From positions 160,001 through 224,000 of IMG/VR virus record IMGVR_UViG_3300010355_000898: a stretch of DNA of 64,000 nucleotides; one strand, given 5' to 3'. A model generated the notes under the pieces. That model made no database searches. It saw only the letters and a program-made list of their open reading frames with translations, and was not told the origin of the DNA. Positions 47,536 to 51,685 of the stretch are shown here, one piece after another. The number at the start of each line of letters is the position of its first letter. The first letter of the stretch is position 1. Source of the stretch: a virus. Its lineage: Duplodnaviria; Caudoviricetes. The position numbers and the translations under genes were made by a program.

Positions 47536-49453
47536 GATTAGTCCAAGAATTCATAATTTTGGGTTCAGATTCACTGATTGTAATCCAAGGAGTTGGACGA
47601 TTAAAATCAATCCTTGTGTGAAAAATCCAACCACCAAGATCATTTTTCATTCTTGTGGCCAATTTTTCAATTTCATCATCTGTAACTTCTGACCAAGATT
47701 TTTCGAAAAACATATTATTTTCTGGTATGTCAGTTTGAACTTTGTTGAAGAGTGACATCCAATGTTTTGACCAATAATTTTTGTATGTGTGTATTTTTCG
47801 CTCAATATTGAACCATGAATAATGATAAATGCTTGGAACATTTTTGATCAAATTTTTTGCCCAATTTTCATATATTTTCAATGCTGATGCATTTCCATTC
47901 AATGCATCAAGACGAATTTTTTCAACATCTTGATGATAGAATGTTGCAAATGGAACGCTTTCAAATGTGTCACAGAAAATGTAATCACATCCATCAGATC
48001 CCAAAGAATAGAGCTCGCCATTTTCATCATATGCTCTGTGATTTTTTGGTATGCCATGTGTAATATTTGACACATTTCTTGACAATCTCCATTTCCATGG
48101 ATTTACATCAACTCTAACCTTTTCATGACCACCCCAATATTCAATCACTGGCAATGCAATGAGATCACATTGTTCTGGGAAGTTTTTTGCAATATTTCTG
48201 ATCTTTTCATAATCATGTTCATTAACAACTTCATCAATATCCTGCTGCCAACAATATTTCCCTTTACACTGTTCTCTTGCATACGCTTTCTGTTGACCAT
48301 CAAACAATGCAAATCTTTTATCATTCCAATCCCTTTTTAGTTGTTTCAATATCAATTTTGGTTCTTCAACTGACCATTTTTGCAATTCTTCCCATGTACC
48401 ATCAGTTGAACCACCATCAATGACAACAACTTCATCACAAAATCCCAATAGTGAAATTATTGATTGTCGCCAAGGATATTTTTGTTCAATACAATTTCTT
48501 GTTTGAGTATATCCTGACAAAAGAATGTCATTTTTTGCATCATTAACAGAATTCCAAAACACATTTTTTGCATTTGTAAGATGTTCAATCATGTCATGAT
48601 TTTCACCATTGAACCATTGTTCATTTTTATGTTGAACATGATCATTGATGATCAGTTTACAATTGAGCATTTTTGCTTCAATTACCATTCTTGGACATGT
48701 GTCACCACCATTTGGCAAATAAACAAATCCTTCTGCTGATGCAATTTTTTTCAATGTTTCATCATATGAAAGACCCCAAATTATTTCTGGATTTATGTTT
48801 TTTGATCTGCACCAATTGAGTGCATTTTCATATCCTTTGACCCAAGATTGTGATCCAAGTACAATCCACCCAGATTTTTTTTCATTCTGTAATTCAAGTT
48901 TCAGTTTACTGATTGAATTCAGAGTATCATCTGAAAATACACTTGACAGAATGATGTTTTTTGTATTTGAAAGATATGAAAATCTTGTATGATATATGTT
49001 CTTTTGTGTTTCAGACATCCAAAACAGAATCTTTGCACCCTTATACAGTGATGCAATCATTTTTCCATGTTCTGAATTGTGACAATTGCATGGAACATGC
49101 TCTAAAAACATATGCTTTTCAATTGATCTGTGTACACAAAACTTGTAATCATATTCAATGACACAATAGTTGAGCATGCTGATAATGCTGGGGATTAGGT
49201 TATTGTTCATTGTTGAACAATTGCAGAAGATCCAAAATTTGTCCCTATTCTGCTCTATGATCTTTTTTGTGAGATTTTTTGCTTTCAATCTTGTGACTGA
49301 ACTTGAACTTTTGGCGCTCTGTATGAGCGCCTCTGTGGTCAATTCTGCACCACCAGAATATTCATCTGCAAAAAGATCAGCAACAAAAATATATTCAGCT
49401 TCCTGTGGAATCTGTTCCATGACATCAAATAATGATTTTGAAAAATCAAACAT
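47528..49453 (-). CDS. Bifunctional glycosyltransferase: N-terminal GT-B (GT4-like) fused to C-terminal GT2
   Basis: GGAE, WVKG, DTCPRMVIEAKM, then CDEVVVIDGGSTDGT and QQDIDE. Confidence 0.85.
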   Translation of the reverse strand: MFDFSKSLFDVMEQIPQEAEYIFVADLFADEYSGGAELTTEALIQSAKSSSSVTRLKAKNLTKKIIEQNRDKFWIFCNCSTMNNNLIPSIISMLNYCVIEYDYKFCVHRSIEKHMFLEHVPCNCHNSEHGKMIASLYKGAKILFWMSETQKNIYHTRFSYLSNTKNIILSSVFSDDTLNSISKLKLELQNEKKSGWIVLGSQSWVKGYENALNWCRSKNINPEIIWGLSYDETLKKIASAEGFVYLPNGGDTCPRMVIEAKMLNCKLIINDHVQHKNEQWFNGENHDMIEHLTNAKNVFWNSVNDAKNDILLSGYTQTRNCIEQKYPWRQSIISLLGFCDEVVVIDGGSTDGTWEELQKWSVEEPKLILKQLKRDWNDKRFALFDGQQKAYAREQCKGKYCWQQDIDEVVNEHDYEKIRNIAKNFPEQCDLIALPVIEYWGGHEKVRVDVNPWKWRLSRNVSNITHGIPKNHRAYDENGELYSLGSDGCDYIFCDTFESVPFATFYHQDVEKIRLDALNGNASALKIYENWAKNLIKNVPSIYHYSWFNIERKIHTYKNYWSKHWMSLFNKVQTDIPENNMFFEKSWSEVTDDEIEKLATRMKNDLGGWIFHTRIDFNRPTPWITISESEPKIMNSWTNHE

Positions 49454-49550: not shown

Positions 49551-49610
49551 TCAGTGGTCAGTGGTCAGTGGTCAGTGGTCAGTGGTCAGTGGTCAGTGGT
49601 CAGTGGTCAG
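49551..49610. repeat. Perfect heptamer array (TCAGTGG)x8 plus TCAG
   Basis: Read directly from the sequence. Confidence 0.97.
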
Positions 49611-49764
49611 AGATACTAGATCTAAAGATTACTAGAGATACTAGATCTAAAGATTACTAGAGATACTAGATCTAAAGATTACTAGAGATACTAGATCTAA
49701 AGATTACTAGAGATACTAGATCTAAAGATTACTAGAGATACTAGATCTAAAGATTACTAGAGAT
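49609..49764. repeat. Perfect 25-bp tandem array (AGAGATACTAGATCTAAAGATTACT)x6 plus AGAGAT
   Basis: Period 25 read directly; no spacers; each unit holds the palindrome TAGATCTA. Confidence 0.97.
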
Positions 49765-50429
49765 CAGTCTCTATTGGATTTTACTGAGTACATGGTACCT
49801 GAGCCTGAATTTTTCTGTTCAGAACTTTTTAAAAGATCTTTGTCTAATATCTCAACAATCCCCAGATATCCCATTAGGGATGATTTTCTGTTCTTGATTG
49901 AGAAAGATCTCAATCGAACGTTTACGTATCCAATTTCAGAATTGCCCATTTTGCATTTTGTTTCAAAATCTCTGTGCTGCTCAATGGCTTCTTTCCACTC
50001 AGCATATACACGATCTCTGTCTCTGTCTGAGATTCCCATTACCCATCCATTACCATTCGCTTCATAGGGCATTAATCCTGTTAATTCACACATTTTTTTT
50101 GAAGCCCATGTTATTTCACCATCAACATTTGCTTCAAAATATCCAATGTTCAGGTGTGCAATTATTGCACCCATTTTGCTGTCATTCAATGTTGCCTGAG
50201 CTTCAATACGTTCTATGAGATCTCTCAAAGAATTACCACCATTGGGTCGGAATTCTTTTGACATCATATCAAGAGTTCCAGCATATTCATCAAATTTTGC
50301 AACAAATAGCATCATTTTTTTTGCAAATTTGATTGCAGGTCTTATCATATACTTCCATAAACCAGCAACTACAGTTCCTGCAGAAATCGCTATTGACAAA
50401 TATAGAAGTATCAAATCCATTTGTTGCAT
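49764..50429 (-). CDS. Membrane-anchored PAS-domain protein with no output domain
   Basis: TM helix (LILLYLSIAISAGTVVAGLW), FRPNGGNSLRD linker, then PAS pattern YFEANVDGEITWAS..CELTG....NGNGW...DRDRV...W...GYLG. Confidence 0.8.
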   Translation of the reverse strand: MQQMDLILLYLSIAISAGTVVAGLWKYMIRPAIKFAKKMMLFVAKFDEYAGTLDMMSKEFRPNGGNSLRDLIERIEAQATLNDSKMGAIIAHLNIGYFEANVDGEITWASKKMCELTGLMPYEANGNGWVMGISDRDRDRVYAEWKEAIEQHRDFETKCKMGNSEIGYVNVRLRSFSIKNRKSSLMGYLGIVEILDKDLLKSSEQKNSGSGTMYSVKSNRD

Positions 50430-50545
50430 TATCCTGTACATAACTATCACAAATTTGTAATTTGAATTGTATGCATGCGAATGATGTCATTTTTGGTAAG
50501 GATTTGATTGATTGTGTCAAACAAGTTATTGAATACGTACATAGA

Positions 50546-51685
50546 ATGACATCAATTGATAAAAGTATATTCATTAATGAAAAATTGAATATTCAATCAT
50601 CAATCAGTACAGCTGCAAAATTTAAGCCAAATCAATCACAACAAAAGAACATATATGATATCATAATGAATGCTGCAATCAGAGCAGAGATGATATCTCC
50701 TGGATCTTTTGAAAAGACACTCAATTTAATCGTCAATTCATACAGTGGTAACCAACATTTGAATGACAAAAAGAAAATTGGGGTCAATCTGGATGGTAAG
50801 AATGATATGTTGGTGAGGCACCAATCAACCACTGATTGGGAAACTGTTGTCAATAGATTTATTGCAACGTTGGGATCTGATTTTGACATGTTTATGGATG
50901 CAATCAAACTTGCAGGATTTGCAGGAAAAATTCAGATTGAAAAATCTGTCAATGAATATGATATCATTCATAAACGTTCAGGTTTCAATTTCAGTCTTCA
51001 AACGTTTGGAAACATTAAACGTTTACTTAACACAAAAATTGTGATCATTGATGGTTTGATTGAGAACGTATCAGAAGTTCACAATATGTTGTCTGTTTGT
51101 GCTGAAACAAAATGTCCATTAACAATTGTTGCAAGAGGATACAGTGATGATGTTTTGAACACAATCAATGTTAACAATTTGAGAGGATCATTTCAGGTAT
51201 TGCCATTGGCTGCAAAATTTGATATTGCAACTGCAAACACATTGGTTGACATTGCAGTCATTTCAAAAAGTGATATCATTTCATCATTGAAAGGTGAGTT
51301 GATTTCAACTGTCAAATTTGATACGCTGAAATATGTTGATGAGATCAATGTGAATGGTGACATTGTTACAATGAAAAATTGTGTTGACGTCACAACACAT
51401 ATCAAACAATTGCAAAAAAAGAGGGAAGAAGTTGATGAAAGTGTTCAATATGTGTATGATGACAGAATAAAATCATTGTCACAAAATCTTGTCATATTGA
51501 AATTGAAAAATGACATCAACTTTGTGAATAGAGCACAAAAATTTGACGTTGCAATCAGAACACTGCAATCATACATAAAATTTGGAATTTATGAAGATGA
51601 ATTGGCTGCAACCCAATATGCTTCTGAAGTGTATTCAAGATCATGTTTAAGGATGATTAACAGTTTGGGTGCAATCATTTCATAA
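50546..51685 (+). CDS. Divergent, shortened GroEL-like chaperonin
   Basis: Apical domain IVIIDGLIENVSEV...PLTIVARGYSDDVLNTINVNNLRG, DIAV, DRIKSL; GDGTTT absent. Confidence 0.75.
   Translation: MTSIDKSIFINEKLNIQSSISTAAKFKPNQSQQKNIYDIIMNAAIRAEMISPGSFEKTLNLIVNSYSGNQHLNDKKKIGVNLDGKNDMLVRHQSTTDWETVVNRFIATLGSDFDMFMDAIKLAGFAGKIQIEKSVNEYDIIHKRSGFNFSLQTFGNIKRLLNTKIVIIDGLIENVSEVHNMLSVCAETKCPLTIVARGYSDDVLNTINVNNLRGSFQVLPLAAKFDIATANTLVDIAVISKSDIISSLKGELISTVKFDTLKYVDEINVNGDIVTMKNCVDVTTHIKQLQKKREEVDESVQYVYDDRIKSLSQNLVILKLKNDINFVNRAQKFDVAIRTLQSYIKFGIYEDELAATQYASEVYSRSCLRMINSLGAIIS

What the first reader, a model, noticed from the sequence alone, without database searches (positions are those of the whole stretch)
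49764..50429. Late-promoter membrane protein joining a PNGG-S-L-R-D linker to a lone PAS sensor domain
Seen: one TM helix, a short coiled segment ending FRPNGGNSLRDLIERIE, then a complete PAS-like domain with no kinase, cyclase or DNA-binding output, preceded by ATAGTTA and an AGGA SD. From recall, not verified here: TM proteins with a PNGGSSLRD-type motif occur near lysis genes in tailed phages. Inference: a holin-like or lysis-timing protein gated by a small-molecule, redox or energy signal, or a decoy that poisons host PAS kinases by heterodimerising.
Basis: partly seen in the sequence, partly recalled or inferred. Interest (0 to 1): 0.7.

Follow-up and report, generated by a model that had tools for sequence, protein, structure and literature searches.

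The report
PAS sensor fused to lysis-cassette membrane anchor
A jumbo-phage gene joins a small membrane module, which in many other phages sits right next to the cell-wall-degrading enzyme, to a cytoplasmic PAS sensor domain, so this phage family may time host lysis by sensing the host's internal state.

Summary
Window 49764-50429 (minus strand) encodes a 221-aa protein with three parts:
- one N-terminal TM helix;
- a helical hairpin whose turn is the near-invariant PNGGxSLRD motif;
- a PAS domain. It passes the Pfam cut-offs, the AF2 model has pLDDT 92, and Foldseek gives probability 1.0 to solved PAS/LOV structures.

There is no output domain.

The gene is under purifying selection: against a sister contig, 15 codons differ synonymously and none non-synonymously.

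It belongs to a family of at least 119 clusters at 50% identity. The family was found only in uncultured phages and has no name beyond "PAS domain".

The N-terminal module also exists alone, as 64-185-aa proteins (phrog_9869; phrog_15431 "holin"). These lie within 600 nt of an endolysin in 9 of 14 distinct loci, including three cultured actinophages. PAS-fused forms lie within 1.4 kb of an endolysin in 5 loci.

In architecture, topology and position the module mirrors the genetically characterised LysF1b/LysA2b lysis regulators. Homology to them is only suggestive (hhalign 65-75%), and it does not match PF10874.

In this jumbo phage the gene is not beside a recognisable lysis gene.

Best reading: a PAS-gated lysis-timing protein. 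This is inferred, not shown. The label "late promoter" is not established.

The parts
49764..50429 (-). Coding sequence of the 221-aa protein (P0001), including the stop codon at 49764-49766. Alternative upstream in-frame starts at 50441 (ATG) and 50450 (GTG) are less likely.
   Evidence: The sister-contig gene call starts at the same Met. Codons 1-200 show 15 synonymous and 0 non-synonymous differences.
50346..50414 (-). Single N-terminal transmembrane helix (residues 6-28). Predicted orientation is N-out/C-in.
   Evidence: Kyte-Doolittle 2.21. There are 5 K/R in the 15 residues after the helix and 0 before it. Family-wide, the C-flank is more positive in 115 of 119 members.
50202..50255 (-). 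Conserved juxtamembrane motif EFRPNGGNSLRDLIERIE (residues 59-76). It forms the turn of a helix-loop-helix hairpin.
   Evidence: N63, G64, G65, S67 and D70 are at least 92% conserved in 119 members. AF2 places a loop at 61-67 between helices 2-60 and 68-93. Residues 52-82 match phrog_9869 at E 6.6e-5.
49848..50171 (-). PAS domain (residues 87-194), including the end of its N-cap helix.
   Evidence: Pfam PAS_3 and PAS score above their cut-offs. 118 of 119 family members hit PAS_3. AF2 predicts five strands. Foldseek gives probability 1.0 to LOV/PAS structures.
49767..49847 (-). C-terminal tail (residues 195-221). It is unconserved and is not an output domain.
   Evidence: pLDDT is 63-67. All amino-acid differences from the sister contig, and one indel, fall here. 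No Pfam hit.
50441..50447 (-). ATAGTTA box 11 nt upstream of the ATG. It is a recurrent start-proximal motif of this phage; its timing class is unknown.
   Evidence: It is identical in the sister contig.

Best explanation
The gene encodes a bitopic inner-membrane protein, with its N-terminus outside and the bulk of the protein in the cytoplasm.

Its N-terminal 85 or so residues are a TM helix, a basic juxtamembrane helix, a PNGGxSLRD turn and a second helix. This is a module that many phages encode as a free-standing small protein inside their lysis cassettes. It is analogous, and possibly distantly related, to the one-TMD N-out/C-in lysis regulators LysF1b and LysA2b of mycobacteriophages.

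In this protein the second helix of the hairpin runs straight into a cytoplasmic PAS domain as its N-cap helix.

Proposed mechanism (inferred): the PAS domain senses a cytoplasmic cue, such as a metabolite, redox state or energy state. Through its N-cap helix it changes the packing or oligomerisation of the hairpin and TM helix. That advances or delays the membrane event that releases or activates the endolysin. The protein could act by itself or through a partner holin.

Shown here: architecture, predicted topology, PAS fold, conservation, and the family's association with endolysin genes. Inferred: any lysis activity of this particular protein, PAS ligand sensing, and the direction of regulation.
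For: Architecture and fold:
- Domain layout and PAS fold.
- Topology by the positive-inside rule holds in 115 of 119 members.

Family:
- 119 of the top 150 representatives are 170-300-aa full-length relatives, all without an output domain.
- The N-terminal part of the PAS forms is homologous to the short forms: hhalign 99.2%, E 7.5e-20.
- 89 of 119 members hit phrog_9869.

Short forms next to peptidoglycan hydrolases:
- L024: CHAP endolysin, overlapping genes.
- L031: NlpC/P60.
- L040: endolysin 543 nt away.
- L027, L038 and L059: endolysins 269, 37 and 416 nt away.
- Thermobifida phage P1312: overlaps the amidase gene.
- Streptomyces phage TurkishDelight: order is endolysin, holin, then this gene.
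- Arthrobacter phage Sonali: overlaps lysin A.

PAS forms near endolysins:
- L023 at 60 nt, L021 at 318 nt, L010/L012 at 855/340 nt.
- L008 at 1323 nt and L055 at 668 nt.
- In flanks of up to 8 kb, every endolysin found but one lies within 1.4 kb.

Other context:
- Small TM proteins are enriched within two genes of PAS forms: 13 of 63 against 23 of 273, Fisher p 0.007.
- Actinophage short forms hit phrog_15431 'holin' at 1e-10 and 5e-9.

Link to LysF1b/LysA2b:
- hhalign to the LysF1b/LysA2b alignment gives 74.6%, P 2.6e-5, with the motifs in register. Reversed and 30 column-shuffled controls reach at most 0.7%.
- LysF1b and LysA2b are shown genetically to control lysis and to respond to energy poisons. 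LysA2b is encoded away from the lysins (PMC13056207; bioRxiv 10.64898/2026.08.27.747656).
Against: - In this genome the gene lies between a glycosyltransferase cluster and a GroEL-like gene. No TM partner or hydrolase is nearby.
- Eight common endolysin Pfam families give no hit anywhere in the 270-kb record, which is 74% complete.
- Most PAS forms in large phage contigs sit among nucleotide-metabolism or other genes.
- The module does not match PF10874/DUF2746, although the D29 gp30 control does.
- Its cytoplasmic helix is 28% charged, against more than 50% reported for D29 LysA2b and Girr LysF1b, and 30-50% across LysF1b-like phams.
- The 'holin' label of phrog_15431 is an annotation, not a tested function.
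- No PAS cofactor signature was recognised.
Confidence: 0.45

Rival explanations
1. The protein is a lysis-cassette-type membrane protein, but the PAS domain is not a sensor. It serves as a constitutive dimerisation or scaffold domain that sets the oligomeric state of the anchor or recruits a partner. Timing would then be fixed by expression level, as in ordinary holins.
For: All the lysis-context evidence applies. No cofactor motif was recognised, and the conserved PAS residues (G104, G128, W129, W145, R153, G190) look structural. Many PAS domains act mainly as dimerisation modules (established knowledge).
Against: The PAS core is kept across at least 119 divergent clusters with a closed five-strand fold. 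Some members carry two PAS units in tandem, which is more typical of sensory arrays.
Confidence: 0.2
2. The protein is a membrane-anchored PAS protein with a role other than lysis in large phages. It could control another envelope or membrane process, for example superinfection exclusion, membrane-associated assembly or the neighbouring glycan system. In this reading the anchor module is a generic membrane tether borrowed from lysis cassettes.
For: In this genome and in other large-phage contigs the gene is not near lysis genes. In the window it ends an 18-kb run of leftward glycosyltransferase genes, and in L002 it follows sugar-modifying genes.
Against: The extreme conservation of the PNGGxSLRD hairpin argues that the module has a function of its own rather than acting as a tether. 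PAS forms do sit in lysis cassettes in five mid-sized phage loci. Large phages commonly scatter their lysis genes; D29 LysA2b is a tested example.
Confidence: 0.2
3. The protein is a decoy that heterodimerises with the PAS domains of host sensor kinases at the membrane and blocks or hijacks host signalling.
For: The best hits outside the family are multi-PAS sensor kinases, at 23-30% identity to individual PAS units. There is no output domain.
Against: The similarity is generic PAS_3 similarity. Hosts of the family span Bacteroidota, Actinomycetota, Planctomycetota and Proteobacteria, so no common kinase target is evident. The reading does not explain the conserved anchor module or its lysis-cassette position.
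Confidence: 0.1

Closest known systems
LysF1b / LysA2b one-TMD lysis regulators of mycobacteriophages (Pfam PF10874, DUF2746)
   Same: - Single N-terminal TMD with N-out/C-in topology and basic residues after the TMD.
- Extended helical cytoplasmic part.
- Located in or near lysis cassettes, but sometimes elsewhere in the genome (D29 gp30).
- A conserved N-x-x-x-[ST/N]-[LM]-R-D motif aligns in register with PNGGxSLRD.
   Different: - There is no HMMER match to PF10874, and the profile-profile probability is only 65-75%.
- The cytoplasmic helix is less charged.
- The window protein adds a 110-aa PAS domain that none of them have.
- Hosts include Gram-negative lineages.
phrog_9869 (unknown function) and phrog_15431 (annotated holin): small phage membrane proteins
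   Same: They share the N-terminal module. P0001 residues 52-82 match phrog_9869 at E 6.6e-5, and 89 of 119 family members match it. Free-standing actinophage forms match both PHROGs over their full length.
   Different: Those proteins are 64-185 aa and have no PAS domain. P0001 itself matches phrog_15431 only at E 0.07-0.26. The 'holin' label is positional annotation, not a tested function.
T4 holin T with antiholins RI and RIII (signal-responsive lysis timing)
   Same: The concept is shared: a one-TMD lysis protein whose timing is set by a sensory input (established knowledge).
   Different: T has the opposite topology (N-in/C-out) and senses through a periplasmic domain and separate antiholin proteins. 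No sequence or fold relation was found.
PAS domains that regulate membrane proteins in cis (KCNH/hERG/EAG channel PAS, LOV sensors)
   Same: The fold is shared. Foldseek hits include hERG, ELK and EAG PAS domains and LOV domains with flanking helices. In both, the PAS domain is coupled through a helix to a membrane-embedded element.
   Different: Sequence identity is 11-17%. There is no LOV cysteine motif. This is an analogy only.

Membership tests
PAS domain superfamily (Pfam PAS_3 / PAS) | Score above the curated Pfam gathering cut-off | tested here: met
   PAS_3 scores 27.4 against 25.6, and PAS scores 25.0 against 22.6. 118 of 119 relatives hit PAS_3.
PAS domain superfamily (Pfam PAS_3 / PAS) | Five-stranded antiparallel sheet flanked by helices, with structural similarity to solved PAS domains | tested here: met
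   AF2 predicts strands at 96-100, 106-109, 155-163, 167-179 and 185-194 with pLDDT around 98. Foldseek gives probability 1.0 and TMt up to 0.77.
PAS domain superfamily (Pfam PAS_3 / PAS) | Binding of a cofactor or ligand | not testable with these tools
   No LOV or heme signature was recognised by eye. Biochemistry is needed.
Sensor histidine kinase, cyclase or other PAS-output protein | Presence of a HisKA/HATPase, GGDEF/EAL, cyclase or DNA-binding output domain | tested here: not met
   Only PAS families are found in P0001 and in 119 relatives. Longer relatives merely add a second PAS domain.
LysF1b/LysA2b (PF10874, DUF2746) | Single N-terminal TMD with N-out/C-in topology and basic residues after the TMD | tested here: met
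   compared with the descriptions in PMC13056207 and the D29 preprint.
LysF1b/LysA2b (PF10874, DUF2746) | Sequence match to PF10874 | tested here: not met
   No hit in the window's genome at E up to 10, and none in four actinophage records that carry the short form. The D29 gp30 control scores 24.8 bits.
LysF1b/LysA2b (PF10874, DUF2746) | Remote homology by profile-profile comparison | tested here: inconclusive
   hhalign gives 74.6% (P 2.6e-5) for all module sequences, 65% for PAS-form N-termini only and 38% for short forms only. Controls reach at most 0.7%.
LysF1b/LysA2b (PF10874, DUF2746) | Highly charged (30-50% or more KRHDE) cytoplasmic helical tail | tested here: not met
   28% in P0001 and as the family mean.
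LysF1b/LysA2b (PF10874, DUF2746) | Lysis-defect phenotype on deletion; triggering by energy poisons | not testable with these tools
   Requires genetics in a cultivable phage.
Canonical holins (classes I-III) | Small membrane protein encoded beside the endolysin | tested here: not met
   For the window gene there is no hydrolase or TM partner nearby, and none was found in the record. For relatives the feature is met in 14 loci.
Canonical holins (classes I-III) | Lethal, PMF-sensitive hole formation in the cytoplasmic membrane | not testable with these tools
   Needs expression and lysis assays.
phrog_9869 module family | Significant profile match covering the PNGGxSLRD hairpin | tested here: met
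   E 6.6e-5 for the full protein and 1e-5 for residues 1-95. hhalign to the short forms gives 99.2%.

The most novel reading that the evidence does not exclude
The family is a ligand-, redox- or energy-gated lysis trigger. A cytoplasmic PAS sensor would be wired directly, through one continuous helix, to a holin-like membrane hairpin, so that the phage reads the host's metabolic state to decide when to lyse. This would be the first sensor-domain-coupled lysis clock. It appears widespread in uncultured aquatic and soil phages, from 25-kb siphophages to jumbo phages.
Probability: 0.3. Interest if true: 0.8.

Novelty: new variant of a known kind. Interest (0 to 1): 0.62.

Why it matters
Lysis timing sets burst size and phage fitness. 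Known lysis clocks run on holin concentration and membrane potential, or on separate antiholins. A cytoplasmic PAS sensor fused to a lysis-cassette membrane module would show that phages can link lysis to a sensed intracellular cue.

Three practical points follow:
- It would give a compact, testable system, and possibly an engineerable lysis switch.
- It defines a large family that databases label only as 'PAS domain'.
- It extends the recently described one-TMD N-out/C-in class of lysis regulators beyond actinophages.

Tried and rejected
- **Homodimer prediction** (two copies, alignment A1): no verdict, scores 0.12 and 0.16 against a mark of 0.42. It is not used as evidence either way.
- **tblastn of PAS forms against GenBank phages:** P0001 and three diverse PAS forms gave no match in 50,697 records. 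Megablast of the 12-kb neighbourhood also gave none.
- **PDB sequence search:** nothing meaningful.
- **Literature:** searches for the motif strings and for PAS plus holin found no description.
- **Locus search with the full alignment:** The search for related loci failed with the 119-sequence alignment because no stretch was conserved enough. An 18-sequence subset worked.
- **Endolysin in this genome:** PF00959, PF01510, PF01464, PF05838, PF05257, PF13539, PF01551 and PF08291 gave no hit. The PF05838 control also rang nowhere, so that search says nothing.
- **phmmer with four known hydrolases** found no extra neighbours. An enlarged set did.
- **Sigma-70 promoter scan:** no promoter upstream of the gene, and counts at shuffle level.
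- **Spanin reading rejected:** the predicted topology is the opposite of an i-spanin, and the module occurs in phages of Gram-positive hosts.
- **LOV photoreceptor reading rejected:** there is no flavin-binding cysteine motif, and the LOV hits reflect the flanking helices.
- **Second copy:** the motif occurs only once in the six-frame translation of the genome.

Full report
**What is there**

The finding's coordinates hold an ORF on the minus strand, 49764-50429, encoding 221 aa. The window is bases 160001-224000 of a 269.5-kb IMG/VR virus record. The record has 37% G+C and is estimated 74% complete, so this is a jumbo phage.

Neighbours are an 18-kb leftward glycosyltransferase cluster ending at 49453, a divergent GroEL-like gene, an unknown 307-aa gene, ClpP, a helicase and PhoH.

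A 98%-identical copy on an independent 7.7-kb contig keeps the same gene order. It differs in codons 1-200 by 15 synonymous and 0 non-synonymous changes. All amino-acid changes fall in the last 21 residues. The gene is therefore real and under strong purifying selection, apart from its tail.

**Anatomy**

- Residues 6-28 form the only hydrophobic segment.
- An AlphaFold2 model built on 119 relatives has mean pLDDT 92.4. It shows one long helix (2-60), a loop (61-67, PNGGNS), a second helix (68-93), then a five-strand PAS core (96-194) and a low-confidence tail.
- Pfam PAS_3 and PAS pass their curated cut-offs.
- Foldseek matches solved LOV, HIF/ARNT and KCNH PAS domains at probability 1.0.
- No kinase, cyclase or DNA-binding domain is present in this protein or in any of 119 relatives. 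Longer relatives only add a second PAS unit.
- The 15 residues after the TM helix carry 5 K/R, against none before it. Across the family the C-flank is more positive in 115 of 119 members. By the positive-inside rule the motif and the PAS domain are cytoplasmic. This is an inference.

**Family**

- phmmer against 1.84 billion representatives gave 6078 hits at E up to 0.001. Among the best 150, 119 are proteins of 170-300 aa that match over their full length. The rest are long multi-PAS proteins that match only the PAS part.
- In the alignment, N63, G64, G65, S67, D70, G104, G128, W129, W145, R153 and G190 are at least 90% conserved.
- Four diverse PAS forms have no tblastn match in 50,697 GenBank phage records. 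BFVD lists the best structural matches only as 'PAS domain [uncultured Caudovirales phage]'. The PAS-fused family is thus known only from metagenomes and is unnamed.
- MAG contigs carrying it are assigned to Sediminibacterium, Propionibacteriaceae, Phycisphaerales, Gammaproteobacteria and Chitinophagales. A short form lies in a Streptomyces genome.

**The N-terminal module stands alone elsewhere, in lysis cassettes**

- 89 of 119 members match phrog_9869, a 98-position family of unknown function, through the motif region.
- A scan of viral contigs returned both PAS forms and 64-162-aa proteins that consist only of the TM helix, the motif and a short helix.
- The N-termini of the PAS forms and these short forms are clearly homologous: hhalign 99.2%, E 7.5e-20.

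Short forms lie beside peptidoglycan hydrolases as follows:

| Locus or phage | Position relative to the hydrolase |
|---|---|
| L024 | overlaps the start of a CHAP endolysin |
| L031 | follows an NlpC/P60 protein |
| L040 | 543 nt from an endolysin |
| L027, L038, L059 | 269, 37 and 416 nt |
| Thermobifida phage P1312 gene 040 (misnamed 'CreC') | overlaps the amidase gene |
| Arthrobacter phage Sonali gp22 | overlaps lysin A |
| Streptomyces phage TurkishDelight gp37 | follows endolysin and holin |

All of these carry the motif. That is 9 of 14 distinct short-form loci.

- In L024, in L033 and its siblings, and in the PAS-form locus L023, it is the only TM protein near the neighbouring gene. 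That neighbour is an identified hydrolase in L024 and L023. In L033 it is an unannotated 156-aa protein (phrog_32486, unknown function).
- Actinophage short forms also match phrog_15431, annotated 'holin', at E 1e-10 and 5e-9.

**PAS forms are also found in lysis cassettes**

- Endolysin genes lie 60 nt (L023), 318 nt (L021), 340/855 nt (L012/L010), 668 nt (L055) and 1323 nt (L008) from the PAS-form gene.
- L014 follows a minor tail protein and precedes three small TM proteins.
- In flanks of up to 8 kb, all endolysins detected but one (L004, 6.7 kb) are within 1.4 kb.
- Small TM proteins are enriched within two genes of PAS forms: 13 of 63 against 23 of 273 elsewhere, p 0.007.
- In large phage contigs the context is instead nucleotide metabolism, sugar genes or chaperonin.
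- In the window there is neither a TM partner nor a hydrolase nearby. Eight common endolysin Pfam families hit nothing in the record.

**Closest experimentally studied proteins**

Pollenz et al. (PMC13056207) describe LysF1b. It is 124 aa, has one N-terminal TMD with N-out/C-in topology, and has a helical cytoplasmic tail. Its deletion causes severe lysis defects, and phages carrying only lysF1b are triggered early by energy poisons. The authors report that it hits PF10874.

A 2026 preprint shows that D29 gp30 (LysA2b, 88 aa) is a homolog and the principal lysis regulator. It is encoded among tail genes, far from the lysins.

This family has a conserved V-x-N-[ST]-H-x-[TE]-N-[LM]-R-x-D motif. 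Comparison with the module studied here gave mixed results:
- hhalign of the module profile against six LysF1b/LysA2b sequences gives 74.6% probability (P 2.6e-5), with PNGGsSLRD aligned to NsHtTNlRD.
- Reversed and 30 column-shuffled controls reach at most 0.7%.
- With PAS-form N-termini alone the probability is 65%.
- PF10874 does not match the window's genome or four short-form actinophage records, although it does match D29 gp30.
- The cytoplasmic helix here is only 28% charged.

I therefore treat LysF1b/LysA2b as the closest working analogue and a possible distant relative, not as the family of this protein.

**Mechanism proposed**

The conserved hairpin is the effector part, because it is self-sufficient in short forms. 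The PAS domain is an added cytoplasmic input. Its N-cap helix is the second arm of the hairpin, so a change in PAS state could be passed directly to the TM helix and alter self-association or pairing with a partner holin. Every step beyond the architecture is inference.

**Promoter claim**

- ATAGTTA is not enriched as a word in the window.
- Genome-wide, 16 of its 25 copies, plus this gene's own site, lie within 30 nt upstream of an ATG, often only 5-7 nt away. This suggests a -10-like box with very short leaders.
- It precedes the tail sheath and baseplate wedge genes, but also the RNR and polynucleotide kinase genes. 'Late' is therefore unproven.
- No sigma-70-type promoter is seen upstream of the gene.

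**Verdict**

The lysis-related reading is the best supported, at about 0.65 for any lysis role and 0.45 for PAS-gated timing. The protein is a new variant: a sensor-fused member of a lysis-cassette membrane module family.

Noticed in passing
window 49551-49764: Two perfect tandem arrays abut the gene's stop codon: a 7-bp unit (TCAGTGG) repeated 8.6 times at 49551-49610, and a 25-bp unit repeated 6.2 times at 49609-49764. The sister contig ends inside the same repeat, so the array is conserved and breaks assemblies.
   Followed up: partly
whole genome (G000); window 3436, 8008, 8526, 26415, 33933, 50447: ATAGTTA lies within 30 nt upstream of an ATG in 16 of its 25 genome-wide occurrences, plus the PAS gene's own site, often only 5-7 nt before the ATG. 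This suggests near-leaderless transcripts. The genes it precedes include tail sheath, baseplate wedge, RNR large subunit and polynucleotide kinase.
   Followed up: partly
window 50462-51685 (+); L054:1-1308: A GroEL-like gene is transcribed divergently from the PAS gene. In an unrelated contig a Cpn60 gene lies 3.7 kb upstream of another PAS form. This is probably coincidence.
   Followed up: no
L041:6701-7144 (Thermobifida phage P1312 gene 040): This gene is annotated 'sensory protein kinase CreC' but is a 147-aa one-TMD protein with the motif and no kinase or PAS domain. It overlaps the amidase gene, so the name looks like a misannotation.
   Followed up: yes
proteins P0035 (385 aa) and P0086 (363 aa): These family members carry two PAS units. 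The linker before the second PAS repeats a degenerate form of the motif (for example KNGKSLVEIINSIE). This suggests duplication of the motif-helix-PAS unit.
   Followed up: no
genome 66126-67366 (outside the window): Three consecutive small genes on the same strand encode TM proteins of 131, 167 and 101 aa. They are a candidate membrane or lysis module of this phage. No endolysin was recognised anywhere in the record.
   Followed up: no
L062:3456-4010, L063:3504-3911, L041:6701-7144: Actinophage short forms share a proline-rich repeat (PxRPGVPxRPGV) between the TM helix and the motif. The aquatic forms lack it.
   Followed up: no
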